Assembly (NCBI RefSeq): GCF_006345805.1
Contig: NW_021836833.1
Location: 1 to 37,412, forward strand
Reading direction: 5' to 3'
From: Octopus sinensis
Taxonomy: Eukaryota
Length of the DNA stretch: 37,412 bases
In this document: piece after piece, positions 1,543 to 36,419 of the stretch
Layout: every line of letters starts with the position of its first letter
How positions within the stretch are numbered: position 1 is the stretch's first letter
The notes under the pieces: model-generated
What the model was told of the DNA's origin: nothing
What the model saw: only the letters and a program-made list of their open reading frames with translations
The model's database searches: none
Made by a program: the position numbers and the translations under genes

Positions 1543-2985
1543 CTGAGAGATTCTCGGATAGTTCTTAATTTCCGATTGTTCTTTACTTGAAAGCAGGCAA
1601 TAACAAACCACCAAAGGTTTCAAGTATTGTCTCAAAGAGACAATACTCTCCTTAGAATGTGAGCTGTACCTAACAATGCTGTCTTCTGGATCACTTCGAG
1701 TTTGACAGAAGCCCCAATATTTTTAATATTTTTCAAAGCTCTTGGAAACTGCCCCATAACTTTCCTATCTCGTCCCGCAGTGGCTGGTATTTCTCACTCT
1801 TTTCTGTTTCCTTACATTTCACCCTCGAATCGCTTGGTATTGCAAAATCTATAATCTTTGCTTCTTTTTCATCTTTATGGATGATCACGATAGCCGGATT
1901 TCTCGCCTCTATGACTTGGTCACACTTTTTGTTAAAATCATAGAGTATTTTGTAATTTTCGTTTTCCATTACTCCCTCTGGCTTGTGTTCATACCATTGT
2001 TCGGCTCTCTCGAGGTTTGCTTTACTGCACAACGACCACTGGGCATATCTGGCCACATTGTCATGTCTCCTTTTGTATTCGCGTTGTGCGAGCTTACAGC
2101 ACTCAATAACAATATGGCTTATACTTTCTCCCTTCTCAGAGCACATCCTACACCGTGGCGAGTCAGTGCTTTTATCAATGTGATGTTTGGAGTAGTTTGT
2201 TTCTAAGAGCTTGTTCTTGAACGCTGCACACGAATGCCTTCGTGGGCCCTTTTAAGTCTCCTTTCTGCAGCCATTTCCAGGTTCTATTCCAACCAATCTC
2301 ATCTTTATTCTTCAAGAACTGACTGTGAATTTTCTTGTCCTGCCAAATTTTCTTCATATGCTCCGTCTGGTCTTTCTTAAATCGTGTTGGGTCTACGGAT
2401 TCGTTCACTTTTAAGGTTCCCTGCATTTTCACAGCTTCAATCATTTCTTTACTCTCCTAGACACACCAGGCCAGGCCAGGCCAGGCTATTCTCCTCTTCT
2501 CTTGCACAACCGTCATAATACACCAATCCTCATCCTCCTTCTTTCCTATTTACATACAATCTTGCCACATCACTCTTGGGGTATAGTTCCTTGTTCATTG
2601 TCATTAATTTACGTCTTCTCCGTTCTATCTCTTGTAATTCATTCGTCTTCCAAGATACTATTCCTGCCCCATATCACATCAAAGCAAACGCCCACGTATT
2701 AATTGCTCTAACCTTAAAGCGGCCATTTAGCTTCGACTGGAGCACAAGCTGAGTTCTCCTCAAATACTCTTTCCTGTACACTTCTTTCATCTTGTGTTCA
2801 TTCACCTGATCTCTTTCAATGATACCCAGGTACTTATATCCTTCCTCTCCTATTTCCTTTATAGTCTCACCACTTTCCAGCTTGCTCCCATGGCTTTTAC
2901 TCATCCCCCCCCCATCCTTTTGAGAATCATTACACCACATTTCTCGACCCAAATATCTTTGCTAATCATCTGCGCAGTTGCACAG
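1543..2985 (-). mobile_element. R4/Dong-clade non-LTR retrotransposon, 5'-truncated and degenerate
   Basis: Frameshifted ORF pieces: YKYLGI (RT), Zn knuckle followed by RHDNV, RLE-type IIDFAIP..EKYQPL, C-terminal IQKTALLGTAHILRR. Confidence 0.9.
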
Positions 2986-3847: not shown

Positions 3848-4525
3848 AAGGCGGCGAGCTGGCAGAAGCGTTAGCACGCCGGGTGAAATGCGTAGCCATT
3901 TTTCGTCTGCCGTTACATTCTGAGTTCAAATTCCGCCGAGGTCGACTTTGCCTTTCATCCTTTCGGGGTCGATAAATTAAGGACCAGTTACGCACTGGAG
4001 TCGATATAATCGACTTAATCCGTGTGTCTGTCCTTCTTTGTCCTCTCTGTGTTTAACCCCTTGTGGGTAGTAAAGAAATAGGTATTTCGTCCGCCGCTGC
4101 GTTCTGAGTTCAAATTCCACCGAAGTCGACTTTGCCTTTCATCCTTTCGGAACCGATAAAGTAAGTACCAGTTACGCACTGGGGTCGATGTAATCGACTT
4201 AATCGGCTTGTCTGTCCTTGTTTGTCCCTTCTATGTTTAGCCCCTTGTGGATAGTAAAGAAAAATATATATATTAGATTTATTTATAGTCAAAAGGTGGC
4301 GAGCTGGTGGAAACGTTAGCACGCCGGGCGAAATGCTTAGCAGTATTTCGTTTGTCGCTACGTTCTGAGTTCAAATTCCGCCGAGGTCGACTTTGCTTTT
4401 CATCCTTTCGGAGTCGATTAAATAAGTACCAGTTACGCACCGGGGTCGATCTAACCGACTTAATCCGTTTGTCTGTCCTTGTTTGTCTCCCCTGTGTTTA
4501 GCCCCTTGTGGGTAGTAAAGAAATG
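3848..4525 (+). mobile_element. Tandem SINE family A copies (3848-4262 partial dimer; 4293-4525 monomer)
   Basis: Heads at 3848 and 4293, gcctttcatcctttcggggtcgat domain, atttatagtcaa repeated three times at the borders. Confidence 0.9.
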
Positions 4526-4670
4526 TATTAGATTTATAGTCAATCATGATTAAAGTTTTCCTCGGTGGTGGCAGTTGCAAGACCTTAGATCATCCCCCTT
4601 CCCCTCCTAAATTCTGCTGACCTCTTTTGAACCGTTGAAAAAGCTGGAGCATTATTCCCTTTTGTAGCAA

Positions 4671-6187: not shown

Positions 6188-6427
6188 ATATATATATATA
6201 TATATATATAAATATTGCATTTCTAAATATCTCAGAGAGATATAAGCAGTAGTGGTACGATAGAGTAGTTGTATACTGTCAACTTAATGTGACAGTCCCA
6301 TGAAGGGAATCACACCACTGCTATTTAGCCCTAGGAAGCATCAACGTTTCCTGTCGGCCTTGACACATTTCCTGTGTCCCTATGTTTACAAGGGGGAGAC
6401 AAGCACCCCCACCCAGCTAAGCCTGCA

Positions 6428-6469
6428 TCCAGAGACTAGTTTCTGAGTCTTGCTCGTCGTCAGTCTGGA
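6428..6469 (-). ncRNA. Minimal type I hammerhead ribozyme
   Basis: UCCAGA-CUGACGA-c-GAG-caaga-CUC-a-GAAA-CUAG-UC-UCUGGA: 6-bp stem I, intact core, palindromic stem III ACUAGU, GUC site. Confidence 0.75.
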
Positions 6470-6568
6470 GTAGCATGGCCTGCAGCTGAAGATACCTGTC
6501 TAGGCTTTATAAGCGTATAAGAAGTCTATTGAAATAAATCCACTGATTACAAAAATGATATATATATA

Positions 6569-6700
6569 ATTCAAATTTATAGAAAAACAAAGATGAACAC
6601 AGGTGTAGGAACAACAAGCAGGTGTATTAGTTTAACGCTGAGGAAGAATGAAAAAGTTTTTTCACGTTTCGAGCCTACGCTCTCCGACAGAAAGGATTAC
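6569..6700 (-). mobile_element. Penelope-like pLTR end with a decayed hammerhead
   Basis: cugucgga-GAGC-guag-GCUC-GAAACGU at 6657-6695; element ends at a (TA)n tract. Confidence 0.55.
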
Positions 6701-13559: not shown

Positions 13560-15592
13560 TTTTTTTTTTCTTCTTACAAATTTGCTTCCATTTCTTGCCG
13601 AGTGTCTTCCCGACTCCTAGGGCAAAGAAACTCATAGCATACATTGGTAGGCCATTAAACCAAACTCAGTAGTTCGTTCATTTTTTTTTATTTTTTTAAG
13701 TTAAATTAAAATACATGAGCAGCAACAGTTCCCACATCGACAATGCTCTTCTCAATACGTGTGATGTACCAGTTAAGACAATCTTTTGCACTTCTTGCAG
13801 GGATGGTAAGCCAGGGATCATTCTCATATAATTTTCGGTTCCCTTCTTGATCATTCCTAGTGCTCCTACGATCACTGGTATTGTAACCGCCTTGAGATGC
13901 CACATTTTCTCAATTTCAATGAGTAGGTCTTTATATTTTCTGAGCTTGTCAAACTCTTTCGCTGAGATATTATGATCACAGGGGATGCTCATGTCGATCA
14001 ATAAGCAAACTTTATTGTTTTGATCTTTCACAACAATATCTGGTTTATTGGCCTTGATGGTTCGGTCTGTATGTACTGGAAAGTCCCACAGAATGGTTAC
14101 ATTTTCTCCTTCAGTTACAGCCTCAGGGTGGTGATTATACCACTTGTCGGCAGTTTTGATATTGTAATGCCGACTTATTAGCCAGTGGAGATATTGGCCA
14201 ACTCTGTCATGTCTTAATTTATACTCCACTGGTGCTAAGACTTTACATCCAGAGATTAGGTGGTCCACTGTTTCAATCATGTCGTTGCAGAATCGGCATT
14301 TTGGGTCTGCTCCATTTTTCATCACATTGGCCTGGTAGTTCCGGGTTAATAGGCTTTGATCTTGAGCAGCCAGGATGAAACCTTCGCTCTCTGCTTTTAG
14401 CCCTGAGCTCCGTAGCCACTGATGGGTTTGCCTCTGGTCAACATCAGCTTGTTTGCTGCGGGTCACATATTTGCCGTGCAGAGGTTTCTCCTCCCACCTA
14501 TCAGCCAATTGCTCGTGCGCTTTCTTCATTGCCATCATTTTCACCTTCTTTGCAACAATAGTTGCCGTACTTCCCTCGGGTTGTTCAGTTTGGGTATCCT
14601 GCACGAGATCAATAGCAAATTTTTTGCTTTCCTTTATGATAGAATGAAGCTTCTTTCGTCTCTCGTGATTTTCCACGAGCTTTAGCATCCAGTCATTCGA
14701 TATTTCGAGATATTTGGCCAGTCCAATTGTGGTTGTTTTGTAAGCTAGTTCAAATGGATCAGGCCTCGACCTCCTTGGGCTCTGGGAAGGTAAAGGCGAT
14801 CTACGTCTGCTTTTGGGTGGTGCATCCTATTACAACTCAGCAGCTTGCGTATTTTTCTATCTATATTCTTTACTTCACTCATATTCCAGTTCAACACATT
14901 GTAGCTATAAGTAACAACTGGAACTGCTAAGGAATTTATAGCTAACACCTTGTTACGTGCATTTAGTTCAGATTTCAGGACTGCACGAACTCTCCTATAA
15001 CATTCCTTCCTGATTTTCTCTTTCATGCTTGCATGCTGAATACCAGAGCCTTCATTATCCCTAAATATTTGTATGTTTGTTCTTGCTCAAGCTCTCTTAT
15101 GACTGTGTCAACATCTAACACGACTGAATTGTGGTCTTCACTTTCCCTTTCTTGAAAGTGGCCTTGGCACACTTCTCAAGTCCAAACTCCATCCCGATGT
15201 CATCGCTGAATGCTTTCACGGTGCGCAATAAGCCTTCAAGTTCATTATTGTCTTTACCATAAAGTTTTAAGTCATCCATATAAAATAGATGGCTTATTTT
15301 TTTATTGGCAATTTTATACCCATACCCTGTTCTGTTTAATTCACTTGTAAGGGGTATTAGGGCTATGCAGAATATTAAAGGTGAAAGTGAGTCACCTTGA
15401 AAAATTCCACAGTTGATGTTTATATTTTCTGAGGCAAGTACTCCATTAGAGTGGTATAATTGGAGATTCGTATTCCACTACGACATATTGTGCTTCAGGA
15501 AGTTTGAAATCACAGGGGATATTTTGAAGATGTCCAGCGATCTCAAGATCCATGGATGTGGTATACTGTCGAAGGCCTTTTTGTAGTCAATC

Positions 15593-17800: not shown

Positions 17801-20553
17801 TTTGGTATTGGCAACATGAATGACAATGGTCAGAGACTACTTGAATTTTGTACATACCATAACCTGTGCATCACTAACACATTCTTTGCCAACAAGACAT
17901 CCCACAAGGCATCTTGGAGACATCTAAAATCTCACCACCGGCATCAGCTAGATCTCATCACTACACAAAGATCCTTTCTGAATTCTGTTCAACTGACCCG
18001 TAGTTATCACAGCGTGGATTGTGACACAGATCATTCACTAATAAGAAGCAGGGTGAGGAATCTGCCTAAAAAGTCCATCACTCCAAGAAAATAGGCCGAC
18101 CATGCATTAACACTGCCAGAACCTCGGGCCCTACACTGCGACAATGTTTTGCTGTTTCTATCAAAGTTGCCCTCAGTAGCTGCCCAACCTCTTTTGCTGA
18201 AAGTAGGTGGAATTATATCAGGGAAGCTTTGTATACCACATCAATAGATACTTTCGGCATGAGAGAAAGGCAAAACCCAGATTTTGTTCAGTGCTGGGCT
18301 CTCAGAGCTGGAAACAGTTATCGAAACAAAGCGTGCAGCTCTGATGCAATACAAGAGTCATTCTTCTACAAAGTCACTCGAAGAACTCAGAAAGGCAAGA
18401 AATAAAACCCAACTGACTGCCAGATGCTGTGCAAATAGGTATTGGCAGGAAATCTGTCAGAGTATCCAGTCAGCTGCTGACAGTAGCGACACCCGTGGGA
18501 TGTATGCCGGTTTGAAGAAGGCCCTCGGTCCATCCGCAACCAAGTCAGCCCCTCTGAAATCAACTAGTGGGGATCTCATCAAGGACCAAAGCAAGCAAAT
18601 GGATAGATGGGTTAAGTACTACCAGGATCTCTACTCACAAGAGACCACGGTAGCTGACGCTGCAATCGAGGGTGTCAAGATCTTGCCAGTCATGTGTGAA
18701 CTTGACTGTCTGCCATCTATAGCAGAGCTCCCCAAGGCTATTGACTCCCTAGCAAGTAACAAGGCTCCAGGAAAAGACGGCATCCCCTCAGAGATCATCA
18801 AAGCCGGCAAAAACACCATCCTGCTTCGGCACCTTCATGAGCTTCTGTGTCAGTGCTGGGAAGAGGGTACAGTCCCTCAGGATATGCGGGATGCTAATAT
18901 CATTACGCTTTACAAAAGCAAAGGTGACCGTGGTGATTGTAACAATTACCGTGGAATATCTCTTCTAAGCACTGTTGGAAAGGCCTCTGCTCCCATTATC
19001 CTGTCCAGGCTGCAACTGCTTGCTTCTCGAATTTATCCAGAATCGCAGTGTGACTTTAGAAGAAGCAGATCAACTATTGACATGATATTCTCCATACGCC
19101 TACTTCAGGAGAGTCCAGAGAGCAGAAAATGCCATAATATATGGCCTTCATTGATCTGGCAAAGGCGTTTGACTTAGTAAGTAGAAAAGGCCTCTTCATC
19201 CTGCTCCAAAAAATCGGATGTCCACCAAAGCTTCTGAAGATCATCAAATGATGATATGCAAGGCACCATACAGCACAATTGTTCAACATCAGCCGCCTTC
19301 CAAATAAAAAATGGGGTAAAGCAAGGTTGTGTCCTTGCTCCTACATTATTTGGCATCTTCTTCTTGCTGCTGTTGTCACATGCCTTTGAGACATCAGATG
19401 ATGGACTGTTTCTGCACAGTAGAAGTGATGGGAAACTGTTGAATCTCTCGCGTCTGCGTACCAAGACCAAAATCAGAAGCGTCCTGATCAAGCGGCATCA
19501 TCAGCAAATAGTATCAAGGAGATGCTATTTGCTGATGATGCCGCTCTGGTATCACACACAGAAGAAGTCCTACAAAGGCTCATCAACTGTTTTGAGCAAG
19601 CATGTGGCAACTTTGGTTTAGTTATCAGCCTCAAGAAGACCAACATCATGGGTTAGGCTACATCGGACATCCCCAACATACATATTGGAGACCACAGACT
19701 ACAGGAGGTGGAGAAGTTTACCTATCTTGGCTCTACCGTCACCTACAACCTATCCTTTGATGCTGAGCTCAATATACGCATTGGCAAGGCAGCTGCTGTG
19801 ATGGTCCAACTCTCCAAACGGGCATGGGACAACAATAAGCTGACCAAGACCACAAAAATGAAGATTTACCAGGCATGTGTACTTAGCACTCTACTGTATA
19901 TAAGTGAGCCTTGGACGCCATACACACGCCATACGACGCCATACGTCGCCTAAATATCTTTAACCTGCGCTGCCTCTGGAAAATCCTTCGCATCAAATGG
20001 CAGAATCACGTCCCCAACAAAGATGTCTTCAAGCTAGTAGGAATACCAAGCATGTTTGCACTCCTCACACAAAGACGTATGAGATGGCTTGGACATGTTA
20101 GCCGTATGGAAGATGGCAGAATCCCCAAGGACATACTCTACGGAGAACTTGCTAGGGGCACTAGGCCTGTGGGAAGACCGTTCTTACGATACAAGGATGT
20201 TTGCAAAAGGGACATGAATGCCTGCAACATCAATAGTACCAACTGGGAAGCAGTTGCCAGCAACCGTGGAGATTGGCGACGTACCGTAAAAGAGGGAACA
20301 CAAAGGAGTGACATAGAGAGAGAGAGAAGTATTGGAAAGACAAGAAAAGACGTCAACAAGAAACTATGACATTACCACCAGCCAGGCAAAGTCTTCGCTA
20401 CATTTACGGCACCTGCAAGAGGGAGTGTTTGTCCAGGATAGGACTACACAGCCACAGCAGGAGATGTATTAGGACATGAAATGTAAAAGCCGGACTAGAT
20501 TTTTTTATACGCAACTCCATTGTCTCCCGAGACAAAAAGGATGCCAACAACAA
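17801..20553 (+). mobile_element. RTE-clade LINE, 5'-truncated within the APE endonuclease, disabled
   Basis: NDNGQRLLEFC..NTFF..DCDTDHSL (APE), KAPGKDGI, NYRGISLLS, GVKQGCVLAPTLF, LFADD, FTYLGS, RWLGHVSRM, C-terminal CGTC..HSH, short 3'UTR ending gccaacaacaa; several stops and frameshifts. Confidence 0.95.
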
Positions 20554-22715: not shown

Positions 22716-23016
22716 TCACTAGTTAGGGATGAATATTGAAAAAACTGAAACTATAAATTGTTGAATCATAGCTGTTGTCGTATATACACTTGTCATTTTA
22801 TGTTCTGAGTTCAAATCCTGTCATAGTCGACTTTATATATTTATTCTTATCAAGGTTGCTAAAGAGAGGCTAGCTGGTGGGATTGTTAGCGCGTCGAACA
22901 AAATGCTGAGTTCAAATTCGCCTTTCATCTTTTTGGGGTCGATAAAATAAGTTCTAGTTGAGTACTGAGGCCGATGTAGTCGACTCACCGACTCCACCAG
23001 AATTGCTGGCTTCGTA

Positions 23017-23375
23017 AGGCGGTGAGCTGGCAGAAACGATAGCACGCCGGGCGAAATGCTTAGCGGTATTTCGTCTGCCGCTACGTTCTGAGTTCAAATT
23101 CCGCCGAGGTCGACTTTGCCTTTCATCCTTTCGGGGTCGATAAATTAAGTACCAGTTACGCACTGGGGTCGATATAATCGACTTAATCCGTTTGTCTGTC
23201 CTTGTTTGTCCCCTCTGTGTGTAGCCCCTTGTGGGTAGTAAAGAAATAGGTATTTCGTCTGCCGCTCCATTCTGAGTTCAAATTCCGCCGAGGTCGACTT
23301 TGCCTTTCATCTTTTCGGGGTCGATAAATTAAGTACAACTTGCATACTGGGGTCGATCTAATCGACTGCCCCCCT
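23017..23375 (+). mobile_element. SINE family A partial dimer, low divergence
   Basis: Head at 23017, second unit restarting at gtatttcgtctgccg (23250). Confidence 0.92.
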
Positions 23376-24149
23376 ATAAAAGAAAACACTTGCCCTGGAA
23401 CTACATAAAAGAAAAGCAAACTTTCTAACCACACACCCACGTCTGTGCCTCTTGCACATTTTTACTACATTCATTGAAAACCAGTAATAGCTCGATTGTT
23501 TGTATATCATTCAAAAATGCCTCATAGTTTTTAATAATTATGTTTTCCCAATAGATAATTAGTTGATTTTTTTCTTTGTTTTTATCAATAGGATTTTTTA
23601 TGCTGTAATAATCTTTCTGGACTAGTCTATATTTATATGACATTTATACAAATGATTTTAGTAAAGTACAGTATTATTCTTTCACAAAATGTTTAGTAGC
23701 CGGATACATCCTGTTTCAGTGTTTTAAGCCATTAGCTTGACTAATTAAAATAACTTATAATAGCTGTTGTTGATAAGAGTACTTCTCGTTATTTTTCCTC
23801 CTATATACTTCCTGGTTGAGGACATTTCGGTGAAATTACAATCTAAGTATACAAGCCAATACCATGGGTAAATTTCCTGGGGTACCTCCTGCTGTTGCGA
23901 GCTAACGTATTTGGTTCGATGAATAAAAAAACAGCTTTTTTCATTTTAACTAATTTAAATTATTCCCTTAATGAAGAAAAGAATCTTTAGCGCTAATGAC
24001 AATTCATGTCGAGCGAGAAGGGATATTTTATTTGTTCTGATTATTTACTATTCCATACAAATCTAAAATATTCTTACAAAAATAGATAGATAGATAGATA
24101 GATAAAGAGACATACTACATGCATACATACATGCATACATACATACATA

Positions 24150-25078: not shown

Positions 25079-25632
25079 TATCAAAATTACTAATTTTTTT
25101 CATATTTAAAAAATATTTTAAAGTGAAAATGACATTAAAATACGATAAATATTTCGTAAAAGACCTGTTCGTAACCTCGGTGAAATATTTTTTTACATAG
25201 GATTTTTTTGAGTGCATTCAACGTATCTCACCTCCAAAGATTTGGATGCTATTTCTAGCACGCCCTGCTACCACGTAACAGCTATTTGCGATAAATATTA
25301 TATTATATTATATTAAGGGCATAACTATACATAAATGCCTAACGCTAGGAGGGACTCTTAAAGTCAAAACTACCATAATAAACACATTGTACCGAACGCG
25401 AGGAAATGCAACTCTCGAAGCGAGCCTTTTAAAAACAGATTCAGCTGCAGATCATATGATTTCATAATTAATGCACAAAATGCACTTTTTAATCGTCAGT
25501 GCAAGCATAATCAAGATACATAAAAATGAACAAAAAATCAACATACCAGACGAATTAATAAATTTTTCCTTTATGAGGTTTTTCACGTTAACTACTTGAT
25601 AAATTCTTATAAAGATTTTATCCTATTTTAAA

Positions 25633-25674
<42 letters not shown>

Positions 25675-27059: not shown

Positions 27060-27345
27060 AAAAGTGACGGAGGGTGCTGGGTCAGCACCGATTATGCTAA
27101 AATAAGAGTTGAATTAACTCTAAAGCCACTGTAGCCTACACAAGTGACTGTAGACCCCTTTTCTATGTAGCGTTCCAGAATAAGCCATTTTGCGTCCCAA
27201 AAAACGGTTAGCATCAATTTTTCTGCCGAAGGTTGAGTCTTGAATTCCTTTTTCGCTGATGATTCCGGTGTTTCTACTTCACTCTGCCTTTTGAACTCTG
27301 GCTCAAAGTTATGGATGCAGGTCTCATCTCTTTTGACCATTTTCT
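27060..27345 (-). pseudogene. Mariner transposase catalytic-domain fragment
   Basis: RDETCIHNFEPEFKRQS..KKEFKTQPSAEKLMLTVFWDAK resembles mariner TGDETWxHxYxPExKxQS..KxMxTVFWD. Confidence 0.88.
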
Positions 27346-27346
27346 C

Positions 27347-27649
27347 CTTTGCCTTTCATCCTTTCAGGGTCGATTATATAAGTACCAGTCACGCATTGGG
27401 GTCGATATTATTGACTTAATCCGTTTGTCTGTCCTTGTTTGTCCTCTCTGTGTGTAGCCCCTTGTGGGTAGTAAAGAAATAGGTATTTCGTCTGTCTTTA
27501 CCTTATGAGTTTAAATTCCACCGAGATCGACTTTGCCTTCCATCCTCTCAGGGGTCGATAAATTAAATAACAGTTGCGTACTGGGGTCGATCTAATCGAC
27601 TGGCCTCCTCCCCCAAAATTTCGGGCTTTGTGCCTAATGTAGAAAAGAT

Positions 27650-28653: not shown

Positions 28654-28930
28654 AGACGCGTGGGTTAGTGGTTAGGGCATTCTGCTCATGATTGTAAAGT
28701 CGTGAGTTCGATTCCCGGCGACGCGTTGTGTCCTTGAGCAAGACACTTTATTTTAGGTTGTTCCAGTCCACTCAGCTGGCAAAAATGAGCTGTACCTGTA
28801 TTTCAAAGGGCCAGCCTTGTCACACTGAATCTCCCTGAGACCTACGTTAGGGGTACGCGTGTCTGTGGATTGCTCAGTCACTCGCCCGTTAATTTCACGA
28901 GCAGGCTGTTCCGTTGATCGTATCAACTGG
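28654..28930 (+). mobile_element. SINE, family C head with the tail of 22570-22715
   Basis: gttcgattccc B-box, gtgtccttgagcaagacact, then cctgtatttcaaagggccagcc tail. Confidence 0.85.
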
Positions 28931-28934
28931 GAAG

Positions 28935-29230
28935 CCGTATTTATACGTCCTAACTTTTTCAAAATCTACTGCGCAGCCGCAATCCTTCGCCGGCAATAAA
29001 AAAAATATACACTATATCGTATGACTAATATATAGTCTTTTGGACTAAATTTTTACGTTAGACAACTGGAAATGTAAATTTTAATTAATTTCCATTTCCC
29101 TTTCATATGATTAAGTATTGTAAGTTTTTGGATAATTTTCGGTTTTAAAAGTTGGCATGTTTTTTATTGCCGGCGACGGACTGCGGCTGCGCAGTAGATT
29201 TTGAAAAAGTTAAGACCTATAAATACAGGG
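28935..29230. mobile_element. MITE with ~70-bp terminal inverted repeats
   Basis: gtatttatacgtcctaactttttcaaaatctactgcgcagccgc..cgccggcaataaaaaa is mirrored at 29159-29230. Confidence 0.88.
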
Positions 29231-29275
29231 CAAGTAGTTTGATCGCCCCGTGTGTATACGTTTAACCCTAGGTGG

Positions 29276-29349
29276 TCCTGCTGAAGAAGATTACACTTGG
29301 CGGGTTCCTTTACTCGCTAAACTAAAATCAGAAACTAATTGGTCCAGGA
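29276..29349 (+). ncRNA. Type I hammerhead ribozyme with extended stem II
   Basis: UCCUG-CUGAAGA-a-GAUU..[UUGGCGGGU uccuuu ACUCGCUAA]..AAUC-a-GAAA-CU-aauu-GG-UC-CAGGA. Confidence 0.75.
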
Positions 29350-29502
29350 AACTAGATGGTACAATGTTTTTATTTTTCATTTCGTTCCTGTCGAGTTTTA
29401 TCCACAAATTTTTGTGGTTATAGAACGTAGCTGTTCTTTCTAGCGTATTGAATTCCTACGAGTGGATTCCACATGTGCTTAAATATACACTATATCGTAT
29501 GA

Positions 29503-29537
<35 letters not shown>

Positions 29538-29539
<2 letters not shown>

Positions 29540-29697
29540 GAGGGACTTATTTCAGTTTCCGTCTACCAAATTCACTCACAAGGCTTTGGTTGGCGCGAGG
29601 CTATAGTAGAAGACACTCGCACAAGGTGCCACGCAGTGAGACTAAACTCAGAACAATGTGGTTAGGAAGCAAGCTTCTTACTACACAGCCACGCCTG
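29538..29697 (-). mobile_element. SINE family B, 5' half
   Basis: Consensus match. Confidence 0.85.
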
Positions 29698-29774
29698 AGC
29701 CTATGTATGTATGTATGTATGTATGTATGTATGTATGTATGTATGTATGTATGTATATATGTGTGGGTGTATTC

Positions 29775-29999
29775 GACTCAGAACGTAACGGCAGACGAAA
29801 TATCTATTTCTTTACTACCCACAAGGGGCTAAACACAGAGAGAACAAACAAAGGAATTAAGTCGATTATATCGACCCCAGTGCATAATTGGTACTTATTT
29901 AATTGACCCCGAAAGGATGAAAGGCAAAGTCGACTTCGGCGGAATTTGAACTCGCTAAGTATTTCGCCCGGCGTGCTAACGTTTCTGTCACGCCGCCTT
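29775..29999 (-). mobile_element. SINE family A
   Basis: Consensus match with deletions. Confidence 0.85.
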
Positions 30000-30100
30000 T
30001 TTTAGATTTTAACTTCTATGTTACTGAGTGAGCCCCGTGTTCCTGCTCGGCGTGCTGGTATGTATACATACATATATGTCTGTGTGTGTATGTATGTATG

Positions 30101-30171
<71 letters not shown>

Positions 30172-30554
30172 TATCTTCACTGGAATGTTGCTGAAGAAGC
30201 TTAGAACAAAGAATAGCAGGAAAAGTCTTGAAGTGGCTAAAGTAGCTCATGATTGGATGGTTTGACATATAAAAGTTTATCAACGTTAAAGTATGTAACG
30301 CCTCAGGGACAATTGTTACCGGCCGCATTCCACCAGCGACTGTCATCGCAATTTCCTTCTCTTATAATGAAAGACTAACCAGAGAGGCAAAAATTTTCTC
30401 TAGATGGAATGACAATTTCTTTGGTAATAATGGTTCCAAATTTTGGCACACGCCCAGCAGTTTGGGCGAAGAGAATGAGTCGATTACATCGACCTCTGTG
30501 CATGACCACTACTTATTTTATCGATTCCGAAAGGATGAAAGATAATGGTGTAAT

Positions 30555-31001
30555 AGATGGGCTACAGCAAATATTCTGCTCAGTACCACAGACCTTAACC
30601 AATTGAGCATGTCCCTTGGTGGCTGACGATATGTGTATCTCTGATCACGAGCAGAAGTAGTAGGGGAGCATCATAGCCCTGTGTTGAGAGGAAATCTTTG
30701 GGGTTTGAATAATTCCCCACTGGAAACATGGGTGTTTCGTTCAACGTCCTCAGGTCGCCCTTATTCAGGGACCTTTTGAGCGGGATGAGCTATTCGACCA
30801 GAAGAAAATTCTTACTGGGCCCTATCTGCAAGGTCATGCGCTGTTTATCTTGATATGAGATGACCATGTTGCGCACATATGTTTGTGATGCATGTGCCTG
30901 GTGTACCCTTATCAGACGGGTAGTCATGATGGATATACTGGGCTTCGTATATTTGTACCCTTGTGTCACTTTGATGGCATGCACCGCCCGCTCACTCACT
31001 C
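30555..31001 (+). mobile_element. (TAA)n-tailed non-coding retroelement, 5'-truncated
   Basis: Homologous to 12215-12752; followed by (AAT)n. Confidence 0.8.
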
Positions 31002-31054
31002 AATAATAATATAATAATAATAATAGCAATAATAATAATAATAATAATAATAAT

Positions 31055-31260
31055 TAATCCTTTCTGCGAAAGGCACAATGCCCGAAATTTTTTCTTTAAT
31101 TGGTGGTTCGGAGACTGGTCGATTACGTCCACTCCAGTGTTTCACCGGTACTTAATTCATCGACCCTAAAACGATGAAAGGTAAAGTCAACCTCGGCGGA
31201 ATTTGAACTCAGAACGTGTATAGACAGACGAAGTGCCGTTAAGCAATTCGTCCCGGGCGC
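31055..31260 (-). mobile_element. Degenerate SINE family A
   Basis: gatgaaaggtaaagtcaacctcggcggaatttgaactcagaacg. Confidence 0.75.
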
Positions 31261-31345
31261 GCTATAGCATACGTTTCTTTATTAGCCACTACAGGTTTAC
31301 AAATAGATGGAAGGACGTTACAGGATGACGCAATGATAATGTCAA

Positions 31346-31377
<32 letters not shown>

Positions 31378-31659
31378 CTAGTGGTGGTGGTGCACAGATT
31401 GATTACGGAAGAGCATTCCAATGCAAATCAACAATTGGTCACTTGAGACATTGTCCAAAAACAACCGCAACAAAAACAGTTCTATTATTGCATCATATTT
31501 CCGCCATCATGAAAAGAAAATGAAGACAAAGAACTTCTCTATCTTTATTAATAGACTTTTTCGGGAATAAAATCCAATTCAGATGTTAACCAATCTACGG
31601 AACCAAACTGCACATGGATGCAAAGAATACTGTATTTCGCATCTTTTCCCTTTGTCTGT

Positions 31660-31880
31660 TATCTTTTACTTGTTTCAGGCTTTGGACTGCGGCCATGCCG
31701 GAGCACTGTCTTGAAGGATTTTTTGTTGAACGAACCACCCCGGTACTTACGTCGCTTTTTTTCCCGTTAACATCTGGTACTTATTTTCGTCGGTGTCTTT
31801 TGCAAAACCGCTAATGAGCAGGGACGTAAACCAACTAACACCAGTTGTCAATCGGGGAGGGCAGAAACACAAAACATACA
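31660..31880 (-). mobile_element. SINE family B, 3' half
   Basis: cttttacttgtttcag..gactgcggccatg. Confidence 0.75.
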
Positions 31881-32248
31881 CACACAAACATACGCTCACA
31901 CACACACACACGCGCGCGCACATGCACACATACATACATACATACATACATGCACGTATATGTGCATACATCTATGCATGCATACACACGCGCGCATACA
32001 TACATAATACATACATAAATACATGCATGCGTGCATGCACACATACATATATACATACATGCATACATATATACATACATGCATACATACATACATACAT
32101 ACATACATACATACAACATACATACATACATACATACATACATAAAATGACGGCTATGACAATTACATCGACCACCCTCTGCTCCCACTAATCAACTGGT
32201 AATTATTTTATCGACCACGAAAGGGTGAAAGGCAAAATCAACCACACA

Positions 32249-32430
32249 GGAATGGAATGTCCAGTAGAGCTTCCACAGAAAGTTTGCCTCTTAGGAACAG
32301 GAAAGATTATCAGAAAAGTCTTGAGCACTTGACAGCTTCTTGAAATCATGTGAATATCTGAGGATACAGGGAGTAACTTACTACCCACATAAATTCTTCC
32401 AGGAATAACACCAATCCTAAGTCGACGAAA
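32249..32430 (+). mobile_element. 3' end of another R4/Dong-like LINE
   Basis: GMECPVELPQKVCLLGTGKIIRKVLST* has the same terminal QKxxLLGTxxIxR motif. Confidence 0.7.
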
Positions 32431-32715
32431 ATAGTAAAAGGAGGGAAATCAGTGAAGAACTTGAATGATGGTTAAAAATTAGTGAAGAGCACGTATGACA
32501 TCTTCATAGAGATTATTCAGCAGAAATATGAGTCACCATAAAAAATATGTGTCAACATATATCTATGTGAAGCATTAAATCCTCTTAACTAAAGGCCAAC
32601 AAGATGGCCGGCCTTACTGGTATCAAATTGATATCTGGGTTCAAAGAGAAATACAAGTAAAACAGATGACTTGGAAATCTGCATTGAGAATCATTACCCC
32701 AAACCATTTTTGGTT

Positions 32716-32940
32716 GAGCTGGCAGAGACGTTAGCACGCCGGGCGAAATGCGTAGCCGTATTTCGTCTCCCGTTACGTTCTGAGTTCAAATTCCGCCGAG
32801 GTCGACTTTGCCTTTCATCCTTTCGGGGTCGATTAAATAAGTACCAGTTACGTACTGGGTACGATATAATCGACTTAATCCGTTTGTCTGTCCTTGTTTG
32901 TCCTCTCTGTGTTTAGCTCCTTGTGGATAGTAAAGAAATA
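32716..32940 (+). mobile_element. SINE family A
   Basis: Consensus match. Confidence 0.9.
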
Positions 32941-33364
32941 AGTTATCAAAGATCGGATGGACATACATGACTGAATGCGTAGTTATATCCGTCGTGCAAC
33001 TATTTTCCTTTTTGTGGGGTTTTGTCTGTCGGATCAAACAAGTTACAGTGTTGGCTAGTGTGTCCGTGGATGCGCGCGTGTGTATGCGCAAAAAAATGAT
33101 ATTTCTGCCTTGTTGGGCTGGTGCATGGTACTGACAAAGTCCAGAGAGAAAGAAAGGTGCATCTAGCATTTTCATCGCCGCTGTTGGACGCTGTTTCGCC
33201 TGCTGATGATATTTTTGCGATTTTTAACACAGTACGTCCGTAAAAGATATTATCTCCGAACGAACAGCGTAGTAATTTTTCTTTTCTCAACGTATTTACA
33301 TCAAGTTTTATACACAAATGGCTAAACATACATACATACATACATACATACATACATACATACA

Positions 33365-33395
<31 letters not shown>

Positions 33396-33611
33396 GTGTG
33401 GGGAGAGGGAGAGTAAGGGAAGAGAGAGCGAGAGAGAAAGTAAGTATTTAATCAATTTCAGATTATGGTACAAGAACAACAATTTCGGGGACACCGAAAA
33501 GATAAAAGGCAAAATCAACCTCGATGGAGTTTGAACTCAGAACTCTGAACTCAGAACGATTCTGCCAGCTCACCGCTTTTAGTAAGTCTTTAATTAAAAG
33601 TCATAAGCGTA

Positions 33612-33760
33612 GAAGTGGCCGTGTGGTAAGTAGATTGCTTACGAACCACATGGTTTCGGGTTCAGTCCCACTGCGTGGCACCTTGGGCAAGTGTCTTGGC
33701 CGACCAATGCCTTGTGAGTGGATTTGGTAGGTGGAAACTGAAAGAAGCCCGTCGTATATT

Positions 33761-33791
<31 letters not shown>

Positions 33792-33993
33792 TTGTGTGTC
33801 TGTGTTTGTCCCCCCAACATCGCTTGACAACCGATGCTGGTGCGTTTACGTCCCCGCAACTTAGCGGTTCGGCAAAAGAGACCGATAGAATAAGTACTAG
33901 GCTTACAGAGAATAAGTCCAGGGGTCGATTTGCTCGACTAAAGGCGGTGCTCCAGCATGGCCACAGTCATATGACTGAAACAAATAAAAGAGT
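33612..33993 (+). mobile_element. SINE family B, full length
   Basis: Head, accttgggcaagtgtc body, internal (TG)n, gactgaaacaaataaaagag tail. Confidence 0.9.
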
Positions 33994-34047
33994 TATTCAA
34001 ATAATTCTTTGTAACAGGTAGATAACACAGGCGTGATGAAATAGTGA

Positions 34048-34215
34048 TTTTAACGCTGCGCGCTTAAGCGAAAGAAAGGTATTGTAATCCCTCGTTTTTG
34101 TTTGTCTGTGTGTTTGCGAAATTACTGGAAAACGGCTGAACGGATTTTCACCAAATCTGGCAGAAATACTCATTGGGTGAGTGGTTCGAAATGGTGAAAA
34201 TTTGGTTTGATTATC
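34048..34215 (+). mobile_element. Helentron-associated (HINE/DINE-like) fragment
   Basis: aggtattgtaat...gtttgtctgtgtgtttg..aaaacggctgaacggattttcaccaaa layout. Confidence 0.45.
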
Positions 34216-34243
34216 TTTAAACATACATAAATACATACATATG

Positions 34244-34503
34244 TTTTTTTTATTAGCCACACAGGGCTGCACACAGACGGGACAGATTACAAAGTAGAGC
34301 TTTTCTTTTTAGGGAGGAAAAAAAGTGGGGTAGGTTTTCGATCAAAAGGGATCGTACAAAAGAAAGAAAAAATGTTTTAAGGGATCGTGTTTCACAGAAA
34401 TGTCATGATGTAAAGTGTAAAGGGGCAAGCAGATAAGGTTTATCCGTGGAAAGAAAAGCCTACGGAAAAGACCACCGTAACCTCGGTCAATAATGTCACA
34501 TGT
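34244..34503 (-). mobile_element. LINE-like 3'UTR with poly(A), tail similar to SINE A
   Basis: Minus strand ends tgtcccgtctgtgtgcagccctgtgtggctaataaaaaaaa. Confidence 0.55.
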
Positions 34504-34912
34504 TAATACATTTGTTTGCAGCGACTCTGTGTGTGTGCGCGCGTACCTGAATTCGAAGGTTTCGTTTATTTACGAGTTGATTTTTTAAAGTCCATTAGAG
34601 TATAAATACTTAGTGGTGACACTAAAAACACAAAAAAATGTTTTTAAATCGAACTTACAAATTTCCCTATAAGCAAGTAATCATATTATTTATATCCTAC
34701 AACGAACTACAGTACGTTTGATTTACCTACCATCATTGAAAGACGCTGTTATACAATGTTTCCTATAAATATTTCATATTGTTTACTTTCTTTTTCATAT
34801 GAATCGACCCTCGTCTGCGTGTGTATAGATCATGGTGCACCTGTGCGCGTAGACATAAATATATACATAAATACATACATTGATATGCGACTCTACATAA
34901 TTAATAATATCC

Positions 34913-34979
34913 CTGCTGAAGAAGACTTCGCCTGGTAAATTATTTTATTTACTAAAATAAGTCAGAAACCATGGTCCAG
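34913..34979 (+). ncRNA. Type I hammerhead ribozyme with extended stem II (paralogue of 29276)
   Basis: CUG-CUGAAGA-a-GACUU-cgcc-[UGGUAAAU uauuuu AUUUACUA]-aaau-AAGUC-a-GAAA-CCAUGG-UC-CAG; downstream ~130 bp is homologous to 29350-29490. Confidence 0.75.
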
Positions 34980-35242
34980 CAAAGAGATGGTAAATGTTTT
35001 TATTTTTCATTCCCTTCGAGAATTTATCCCTAGTTAATGGTTTGGACTTTAGCTGTTCTGCCTAGCGTAAAGGATTCCTATGATGGAAACCTCTTGATGT
35101 GTTTAAATGTACACTGTATTTTACATGTATATATATGTATGTATATTATATACATACATAATACACTCACACACACACACACACATATTATACATATAAA
35201 ATATATACTATAGGTAGTAGGTAGATTTTCTTCACTACTTCA

Positions 35243-35984: not shown

Positions 35985-36187
35985 TATTATATAATAATTA
36001 ATAATAATAATAATAAATATTAGGGAATAAATCCAATTTACAGGGAAAAAATCAGATTTAGGATTAAATCCAATTTTATAGTAAAATATTATATAATATT
36101 AATTCGAGACAAAACCACTACTTTGCAAAACAAACAAGGAAAGACTTAATCAATACATAAAAATTTTTAATATAAAGAAATAAACCG

Positions 36188-36229
36188 CCACTACAATCGT
36201 TTCATGTCTTCAATGACATTCGTCAGGGG
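36188..36229 (-). ncRNA. Minimal type I hammerhead ribozyme with weak stem I
   Basis: CCC-CUGACGA-AUGUC-auugaa-GACAU-GAAA-CGAUUG-UA-GUGG: intact core, 5-bp stem II, GUA site. Confidence 0.65.
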
Positions 36230-36419
36230 ATTTTCGATCTAAATATCAATATATTAAAATATAAGTTAAAATAATAAAATTATCAATGAAAAATATAAAT
36301 ATATATAATCTATATATAATCCATATATAATCTATATATAATCAATATATAATCTAAAATAAACCCTATAAACAATTGAATATAAAGAAACCTATTATTA
36401 AAGTTCTCATATTTAAAGA

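What the first reader, a model, noticed from the sequence alone, without database searches (positions are those of the whole stretch)
29276..34979. Two paralogous hammerhead ribozymes with an unusual, covarying extended stem II
Seen: 29276-29349 and 34913-34979 both have CUGAAGA...GAAA cores, a GUC site, a closing stem I and a (quasi-)palindromic mini stem III. Stem II carries an internal loop and then a distal hairpin with a 6-nt loop. Its sequence differs (UGGCGGGU/ACUCGCUA vs UGGUAAAU/AUUUACUA) but every pair is kept: C-G>U-A, G-C>A-U, G.U>A-U, G-C>A-U, plus U-A>C-G in proximal stem II. Both have an A/A apposition where the 10.1-11.1 pair normally sits. Known: Penelope-like elements and retrozymes carry minimal type I hammerheads that can cleave as dimers through a palindromic stem III. 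Inference: this is a structurally selected hammerhead variant family in a cephalopod retroelement, possibly undescribed.
Basis: partly seen in the sequence, partly recalled or inferred. Interest (0 to 1): 0.85.

Follow-up and report, generated by a model that had tools for sequence, protein, structure and literature searches.

The report
Octopus retrozyme with two-part hammerhead arm
Two diverged copies of a short, non-coding octopus repeat each carry a hammerhead RNA motif, predicted to cut itself, whose second arm is unusually long and keeps its base pairs despite many changes; the repeat is likely a retrozyme-type mobile element of a known kind with a ribozyme shape that standard searches miss.

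Summary
Observation confirmed. Both motifs are complete type I hammerheads; 9 substitutions in 12 stem II pairs break none, and 4 are two-sided. They belong to one many-copy Octopus repeat. Copy 1 is a whole 478-nt non-coding unit with a 32-nt terminal repeat, an inverted 5' piece and a (TA)n end; related contigs join the unit head to tail. This fits a non-LTR retrozyme, a non-autonomous Penelope-like element (PLE) derivative, which is a known kind. Copy 2 is 5'-truncated and probably dead. The A/A apposition is the optional extra N10 plus extra N11 of a published PLE-hammerhead descriptor, and two other hammerheads in this window have the same double insertion. The internal loop plus distal hairpin in stem II has a viroid precedent, but I found no report of it in animal retroelements; Rfam misses both motifs. 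I propose a 4-bp pseudoknot from that loop to the bases 5' of stem I (weak support). Cleavage, circles and the helper element are untested. The scan had not seen this sequence before; it noted retrozyme-like repeats in other genomes. Verdict: new variant of a known kind, interest 0.5.

The parts
29276..29349 (+). Type I hammerhead motif, copy 1; predicted cut after 29344
29289..29329 (+). Two-part stem II of copy 1: 4 bp, 5x6 internal loop, 8 bp, 6-nt loop; extra A at 29288 and at 29330
   Evidence: (z -4.86, 0 of 200 shuffles)
29271..29274 (+). Candidate pseudoknot strand, complementary to 29294-29297 in the internal loop (inferred)
   Evidence: 3.6% of random 8-mers of the unit do as well; family letter at 29297 turns G.U into G-C
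29334..29343 (+). Quasi-palindromic stem III; perfect palindrome with the family's majority letter at 29336
34913..34979 (+). Type I hammerhead motif, copy 2; stem I only 3 bp; predicted cut after 34976; probably inactive
34924..34963 (+). Two-part stem II of copy 2: 5 bp, 4x4 internal loop, 8 bp, 6-nt loop; extra A at 34923 and at 34964
   Evidence: (z -3.95)
29035..29512 (+). One whole 478-nt non-coding repeat unit, 35% G+C, ending in the unit's own ATATATA
29003..29034 (+). 32-nt exact repeat of the unit's 3' end (29481-29512): partial tandem or 'tail'
   Evidence: loose ends and joints
28937..29006 (-). Inverted 70-nt piece of the unit (65 of 70 identical to 29157-29226), head to head with the main copy
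29506..29538 (.). (TA)n run at the 3' end of copy 1, the likely target
34911..35119 (+). 5'-truncated second copy of the unit, starting about 5 nt before the core and ending in a TA-rich microsatellite
   Evidence: (nhmmer E 8e-18; no upstream homology: score 31 against null mean 29)
25445..25504 (-). Third hammerhead motif, another family: extra U on both sides, stem II that can be drawn in two parts, 10-nt palindromic stem III
   Evidence: E 0.021; fold not better than shuffles
6427..6469 (-). Fourth hammerhead motif, another family: 6-bp stem I, extra C and extra A, 3-bp stem II, palindromic stem III
   Evidence: (E 0.0009)

Best explanation
The two motifs are type I hammerhead folds carried by one many-copy, non-coding 478-nt Octopus repeat that joins head to tail, and the repeat is likely a non-LTR retrozyme moved by a Penelope-like retrotransposon. 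Shown: the fold and its pair conservation, the unit, its 32-nt terminal repeat, the inverted 5' piece, the (TA)n end and head-to-tail joins in related contigs. Inferred steps: (1) a tandem array is transcribed; (2) each hammerhead cuts after C17 (29344), as a monomer in the majority form and as a dimer through the palindrome in the copy 2 form, releasing 478-nt units; (3) a host ligase closes them into circles; (4) a PLE endonuclease nicks (TA)n, the unit's own AUAUAUA anneals there, and the PLE reverse transcriptase copies slightly more than one unit (copy 1) or stops early (copy 2). The internal loop lies where loop 2 normally lies, four pairs from the core. It would dock on stem I, most plausibly by a 4-bp pseudoknot with 29271-74, and the distal hairpin would close and position it. 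Copy 2 is likely a dead copy.
For: Fold and conservation. Family: 1558 and 1276 contigs laid from runs X1 and X3 of two organism labels. Of the 40 variant rows shown (225 more not shown), 8 fall in 29275-29350: 4 lie in helices and keep the pair, 1 adds a sixth pair to stem I, 3 lie in loops, none is in the core. Tandem: joints going back 451, 449 and 478 nt (one contig each; the 451 joint in both runs), and 15 and 14 contigs whose loose end before 29003 resembles the unit's own 3' part. No coding: frames are closed; 0 of 122 low-complexity-filtered frames of 45 aa or more around the hammerheads hit a reverse transcriptase or GIY-YIG family. PLE signature (partial tandem, 30-40-nt tail, adjacent inverted piece, (TA)n bias) as described in PMC8557442 (passages). 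Retrozyme definition and cleavage, ligation and circle data for other species: PMC7229834 (parts 2-4 of 6); PLE origin: bioRxiv 10.64898/2026.07.22.740005 (parts 1-3 of 5). Pseudoknots between stems I and II in about 40% of hammerheads: PMC3088659 (passages).
Against: Only two full sequences of the motif were available, so covariation rests on 4 two-sided changes; the column-shuffle control was reached in 31 of 500, and the family variants are single-site, one-sided and unlinked. No array with two consecutive hammerhead-bearing units was seen: no laid piece spans the stretch. No helper PLE was found. The hammerhead-competent fold has a computed probability of only 0.05-0.08 for copy 1 with 0-15 nt of flank, 2e-6 with 40 nt, and 1e-5 or less for copy 2 (no tertiary terms). 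The pseudoknot arises by chance in 3.6% of random 8-mers for one strand choice, more over the several choices I could have made, and copy 2 lacks the partner strand. Eight of nine Xenopus retrozyme dimers did not cleave in vitro, and the Anolis PLE hammerhead cleaved only with protein and was not needed for insertion (PMC11167929, passages).
Confidence: 0.68

Rival explanations
1. The copies are solo pseudo-LTR remnants of an autonomous Penelope-like element, left by 5'-truncated insertions; there is no independent non-coding unit.
For: The hammerhead has PLE hallmarks (extra base after A9, G10.1-C11.1, palindromic stem III). Most PLE hammerheads occur as single motifs of truncated elements. 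An ATG follows the cut at 29356 with a GT...AG stretch 29359-29443 in both copies, recalling PLE introns.
Against: What lies 5' of the unit in the window and in 15 and 14 contigs is the unit's own 3' end, and joints go back one unit length. Frames after the ATG close quickly in both copies. 0 of 122 frames hit reverse transcriptase or GIY-YIG.
Confidence: 0.15
2. The element is mobile as described, but the fold no longer cleaves on its own: it is kept as a binding or folding signal for the helper's protein, or it cleaves only when that protein is bound.
For: Extra bases sit on both sides of the core junction; the computed share of the active fold is low; the Anolis PLE hammerhead needs protein and is dispensable for insertion in vitro; 8 of 9 Xenopus dimers were inactive; Perreault et al. 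rejected hits with a mispair next to the core unless activity was measured.
Against: All 19 core and adjacent letters are identical in copies that differ at 9 of 24 stem II positions, no core change is among the variant rows shown, and family letters strengthen stems I, II and III.
Confidence: 0.13
3. The repeat is a satellite amplified at the DNA level and the pair conservation is accidental.
For: Only two full sequences; whole-motif folding z-scores are weak; the shuffle control is not significant.
Against: Four descriptor hits against 0.03 expected; 12 of 12 pairs kept, simulation 0.2% or less; dispersed, truncated and inverted copies ending in TA runs.
Confidence: 0.04

Closest known systems
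Metazoan non-LTR retrozymes (Cervera and de la Pena 2020, PMC7229834, parts 2-4 of 6 read; Li, Clavereau and Pollet 2026, bioRxiv 10.64898/2026.07.22.740005, parts 1-3 of 5 read, supplements closed)
   Same: Short non-coding unit under 50% G+C, one type I hammerhead per unit, head-to-tail joins, short palindromic stem III.
   Different: Unit of 478 nt is just above the 150-450 bp range of the 2020 paper (inside the 51-972 bp of the preprint); the hammerhead is PLE-like with extra bases on both sides and a two-part stem II instead of a 4-bp stem with an apical loop 2; no cephalopod is mentioned in the 2020 main text or among the preprint's 35 genomes; circles not shown here.
Hammerheads of Penelope-like elements (Cervera and de la Pena 2014, PMC4209133; parts 1-2 of 4 and the text of the supplement PDF read)
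   Same: CUGANGA plus one extra base, G10.1-C11.1, palindromic 15.2-16.2 region, short stem I; the descriptor allows an extra N11, seen in 1 of 56 aligned examples; Fig. S5A notes a PLE-type hammerhead in 450-bp tandem repeats of Drosophila willistoni.
   Different: There helix II is 3-8 bp with a loop of 3-10 nt; here 33 and 30 nt are enclosed by the proximal stem, forming an internal loop and a second hairpin; the extra N11 is present in 4 of 4 descriptor hits in this window; no adjoining RT-endonuclease frame.
CChMVd (-) viroid hammerhead (Dufour et al., PMC2632901; passages read)
   Same: Stem II interrupted by an internal loop that serves as loop 2 and continues into a distal hairpin; copy 1's loop starts with a purine and ends with A, as in their RNnA motif.
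   Different: Viroid, not a genomic repeat; asymmetric 2:6 loop docking on a hairpin loop 1 with a 5' U, which has no counterpart here; copy 2's loop does not start with a purine.
Pseudoknotted hammerheads (Perreault et al. 2011, PMC3088659; passages read)
   Same: Bases right after the 5' strand of stem II pair with bases beside stem I, in four or more pairs.
   Different: There shown by mutation and rescue, mostly in bacteria and phages; here only predicted, from one full copy and one family variant.

Membership tests
Type I hammerhead ribozyme | Core C3 U4 G5 A6 N7 G8 A9, G12 A13 A14 A15, U16 H17 | tested here: met
   Both copies
Type I hammerhead ribozyme | Three helices round the core, helix I open | tested here: met
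   Copy 1: 5, 4+8 and 2-3 bp; copy 2: 3, 5+8 and 2 bp
Type I hammerhead ribozyme | A standard pair directly after A9 and directly before G12 (criterion of PMC3088659) | tested here: not met
   An unpaired A on each side; the G-C pair is one step out
Type I hammerhead ribozyme | Match to an Rfam hammerhead model | tested here: not met
   No hammerhead family at E up to 10 in local scans of either copy, nor in the 150 rows listed of 157 for the whole window
Type I hammerhead ribozyme | Self-cleavage after H17 | not testable with these tools
   Needs a cleavage assay
PLE-type hammerhead (PMC4209133) | Extra base between 9 and 10.1, G10.1-C11.1, palindromic 15.2-16.2 region, optional extra N11 | tested here: met
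PLE-type hammerhead (PMC4209133) | Helix II of 3-7 bp closed by a loop of 3-10 nt (descriptor) | tested here: not met
   33 and 30 nt enclosed, with a second hairpin
Autonomous Penelope-like element | Reverse transcriptase and GIY-YIG frame next to the hammerhead | tested here: not met
   0 of 122 frames near the hammerheads; the RT fragment at 18263-19174 matches LINE-1 ORF2 structures
PLE-made insertion (PMC8557442) | Partial tandem, 30-40-nt tail, adjacent inverted piece, microsatellite target | tested here: met
   32-nt repeat, 70-nt inverted piece, (TA)n
Non-LTR retrozyme | Short non-coding unit, G+C under 50%, one type I hammerhead per unit | tested here: met
   478 nt, 35% G+C, closed frames
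Non-LTR retrozyme | Head-to-tail arrangement of units | tested here: met
   1.07 units in the window; joints going back 449-478 nt and matching loose ends in runs X1 and X3
Non-LTR retrozyme | At least two consecutive units each with a complete hammerhead | tested here: inconclusive
   No laid contig spans a whole unit; no genome held
Non-LTR retrozyme | Canonical loop 1-loop 2 tertiary contact | tested here: inconclusive
   RNnA-like ends in copy 1's internal loop but no 5' U in loop 1; candidate pseudoknot instead
Non-LTR retrozyme | Expressed as unit-length linear and circular RNA | not testable with these tools
   Only contigs could be laid, which show no ends or circles
Non-LTR retrozyme | No LTR, primer binding site or polypurine tract | not tested
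   No dedicated search run; repeat scans showed only the 32-nt terminal repeat

The most novel reading that the evidence does not exclude
Octopus genomes hold a large, uncatalogued class of active hammerheads with an extra base on both sides of the core junction, and one abundant family has evolved a two-part stem II whose internal loop forms a pseudoknot with the bases 5' of stem I. This would be a new natural hammerhead architecture in animal retroelements, invisible to Rfam and to the published descriptors, driving a 478-nt circular RNA that is mobilised by a PLE.
Probability: 0.3. Interest if true: 0.72.

Novelty: new variant of a known kind. Interest (0 to 1): 0.5.

Why it matters
The role of hammerheads in PLEs and their non-coding derivatives is still open. 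A many-copy family whose ribozyme differs from the catalogued forms gives a natural mutation series for testing what the core tolerates at the 9/10.1 and 11.1/12 steps and how stems I and II can dock. It also suggests that descriptor-based counts of ribozymes in cephalopods are too low: PMC8557442 capped the spacer between the two core boxes at 17 nt, whereas three motifs here have 43, 41 and 29 nt. The element class itself is known, which limits the surprise.

Tried and rejected
Own genome: none held, so no BLAST collection of copies or many-sequence covariation test. Rfam: no hammerhead hit; none for the 6200-6570 element. Expression: no RNA holder listed. Runs X7 and X8 are RNA only by guess; their contigs carry the motif, one in X7 crosses the cut site and one in X8 stops at 29345, but contigs cannot show ends, and a ligated circle and an uncut RNA read alike, so I count this as no evidence either way. 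Intron: a GT...AG stretch 29359-29443 is present in both copies, but no joint among the 15 shown (4 not shown) skips it and contigs run through it; not adopted. Stem I extension 29268-71/29352-55 appears in the fold of copy 1 but copy 2 and loose ends differ at 29353; not adopted. Circular monomer fold: -112 kcal/mol, z -2.55, 1 of 40 shuffles as good, hammerhead not formed; weak. Kinship of the third hammerhead's element with the unit: borderline (1 and 14 of 300 shuffles reach the scores). The one AGAAA row in PMC4209133 Fig. S3 would by list order be the Cotesia bracovirus PLE, but columns were not kept and I could not confirm it. Lunse et al. on PLE hammerhead variants (PMC5785218) is not held; it may already show such variants. 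The bacterial promoter scan was uninformative. In one search the slice for the fourth motif's stem III duplex was off register; that value was discarded.


Full report
Observation. Each has the full hammerhead core, an extra A after A9, G10.1-C11.1, an extra A before G12, a short palindromic or quasi-palindromic stem III, GUC, and an open stem I (5 bp in copy 1, 3 bp in copy 2). Stem II has a proximal helix (4 or 5 bp), an internal loop (5x6 or 4x4), an 8-bp distal helix and a 6-nt loop. The core pattern occurs twice in the window and never in 100 shuffles. Nine substitutions fall in the 12 shared stem II pairs; none breaks a pair and four are two-sided. Random placement gives this in 0.16-0.23% of trials with transitions only and under 0.01% with 60% transitions, with the caveat that the structure was read from these two sequences. 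The column-shuffle control was reached in 31 of 500 shuffles. Stem II alone folds better than all 200 shuffles in each copy; the whole motifs do not stand out. Rfam does not recognise either.

Host and surroundings. The window is microsatellite- and repeat-rich. A reverse transcriptase fragment at 18263-19174 is 88% identical to an Octopus bimaculoides protein and resembles LINE-1 ORF2 structures, so the host is Octopus-like and that fragment is a LINE, not a PLE. The two hammerheads are parts of one repeat: 29277-29539 aligns with 34912-35157 at 72%. Copy 1 is a whole 478-nt unit (29035-29512, 35% G+C) preceded by an exact 32-nt repeat of its own 3' end (29003-29034) and by an inverted 70-nt piece (28937-29006, 65 of 70 identical to 29157-29226), and it ends in (TA)n. 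Copy 2 begins about five bases before the core, has no homology upstream (score 31, null mean 29) and ends in a TA-rich run. None of 122 filtered frames of 45 aa or more around the hammerheads hits a reverse transcriptase or GIY-YIG family; the two hits were a mariner-type transposase piece and a sub-threshold lactamase match.

Family evidence. No genome is held, so I laid contigs of four public runs on 28930-29505 at 80% likeness. 1558 contigs from X1 (organism A) and 1276 from X3 (organism B) were laid, most of them under 95% alike, which indicates a many-copy family. Joints go back 451 nt (one contig in each run), 449 and 478 nt (one contig each in X3), and 15 and 14 contigs continue before 29003 with sequence like the unit's own 3' part, so other copies are joined head to tail. 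No listed piece spans the stretch, so an array with two hammerheads was not seen. Of 40 variant rows shown (225 not shown), eight lie in the ribozyme: 29299 and 29303 turn G.U into A-U, 29315 turns G-C into G.U, 29336 turns U.G into C-G in stem III (143,780 of 145,380 summed depth in X1), 29275 adds a sixth pair to stem I, and 29293, 29297 and 29311 are in loops; none is in the core. These are single-site, unlinked and one-sided, so they agree with the structure without proving covariation.

More hammerheads. A helix-aware descriptor finds four motifs in the window against 0.03 in shuffles (maximum 2 in 100), and a model built from the two copies recovers the other two at E 0.0009 and 0.021 (rough E-values). 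Both are on the minus strand (C3 at 6463 and 25499), in other short elements with TA-rich ends. All four of four have one extra base after A9 and one before G12 (A/A, A/A, C/A, U/U); my descriptor allowed but did not require this. The one at 25499 can also be drawn with a two-part stem II, though its fold is not better than shuffles. A decayed fifth motif at minus 36226, seen by eye, failed the descriptor and has a pair at that step.

How it likely works. The anatomy matches what PMC8557442 describes for PLE insertions: partial tandem, 30-40-nt tail, adjacent inverted piece, (TA)n bias (passages). A non-coding unit with one type I hammerhead, joined head to tail, is the definition of a non-LTR retrozyme (PMC7229834), which a 2026 preprint derives from PLE pseudo-LTRs. 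I infer that an array is transcribed, cut after C17 to 478-nt units, ligated to circles, and copied by a PLE enzyme primed at nicked (TA)n through the unit's own AUAUAUA, which is where both copies end; slightly more than one turn gives the 32-nt repeat. None of these steps was observed. With the majority letter at 29336 stem III has two C-G pairs and a tetraloop, like invertebrate hammerheads that mostly cleave as monomers; copy 2 has one pair and a palindromic tetraloop, the newt-like dimer form, and both can form intermolecular duplexes (-8.4 and -11.2 kcal/mol). Copy 2 is probably dead: its stem I is 3 bp, its lowest-energy fold pairs part of the core, and the active fold has probability about 1e-5 against 0.05 for copy 1.

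Why the long arm. The internal loop starts four pairs from the core, where loop 2 normally is. Its 5' strand (29294-97) is complementary to 29271-74, just 5' of stem I; the family's majority letter at 29297 (1,738 of 1,887 depth in X1) turns the one G.U into G-C, and copy 2's loop strand would still pair through one G.U. The topology is that of the stem I-stem II pseudoknots of PMC3088659. Support is weak: 3.6% of random 8-mers of the unit pair as well, I could have chosen among several strands, and copy 2 has lost the partner.

Comparison and novelty. The extra bases are the optional N10 and N11 of the PMC4209133 descriptor, N11 being seen in 1 of 56 examples. An internal loop in stem II with a distal hairpin is known in the CChMVd (-) viroid hammerhead (PMC2632901). 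I found no report of this arm in an animal retroelement, or of octopus retrozymes, in ten full-text searches of the open library; the giant squid genome paper lists 235 Rfam hammerhead-1 loci without detail (PMC6962438, passage). Also seen as passages only: PMC11167929, PMC6765202, PMC13725137, PMC7761336. Lunse et al., the paper most likely to hold such variants, could not be read, nor could the 2026 preprint's supplements. Hammerhead position numbering is from my own knowledge, checked against the consensus quoted.

Verdict. A real, structurally conserved hammerhead variant in a many-copy Octopus repeat that works like, and probably is, a non-LTR retrozyme. The class is known; the combination of double insertion and two-part stem II appears uncatalogued for animals. 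New variant of a known kind, interest 0.5.

Noticed in passing
window 6210-6557, minus strand: About 350-nt element between TA runs carrying the hammerhead at C3=6463; no Rfam match; a CUGAAGA...GAAA pair with a long hairpin also lies on the plus strand at 6486 but fails the descriptor.
   Followed up: partly
window 25290-25636, minus strand: About 350-nt element after a (TA)n run carrying the hammerhead at C3=25499; its downstream part resembles the 478-nt unit weakly (1 and 14 of 300 shuffles reach the scores).
   Followed up: partly
window 36180-36235, minus strand: Decayed hammerhead-like motif (C3=36226): core boxes and a 5-bp stem II present, stem I broken.
   Followed up: partly
window 29226: The inverted piece ends at the position matching 29226, and contigs of X7 and X8 join an inverted piece (reverse complement of about 29342-29371) at 29226 too; a shared breakpoint, unexplained.
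   Followed up: no
window 29218-29225: TATA-like box about 60 nt before the core; the variant rows shown spare 29218-23; possible internal promoter, untested.
   Followed up: no
window 29114: Contigs of X7 and X8 leave the unit here into TA-rich sequence, a possible second 3' end about 80 nt past the main one.
   Followed up: no
window 13696-15474 (-), 18263-19618 (+), 1733-2248 (-): Broken LINE-type reverse transcriptase fragments (RVT_1, zf-RVT).
   Followed up: partly
window 27095-27355, minus strand: Mariner-type transposase fragment (PF01359, E 1.6e-08).
   Followed up: no
window 3848-4592, 22905-23384, 27249-27618, 29841-29953, 32708-33007: Several copies of a SINE-like repeat, some in 184-nt tandem; recalled as an octopus SINE, not checked.
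   Followed up: no
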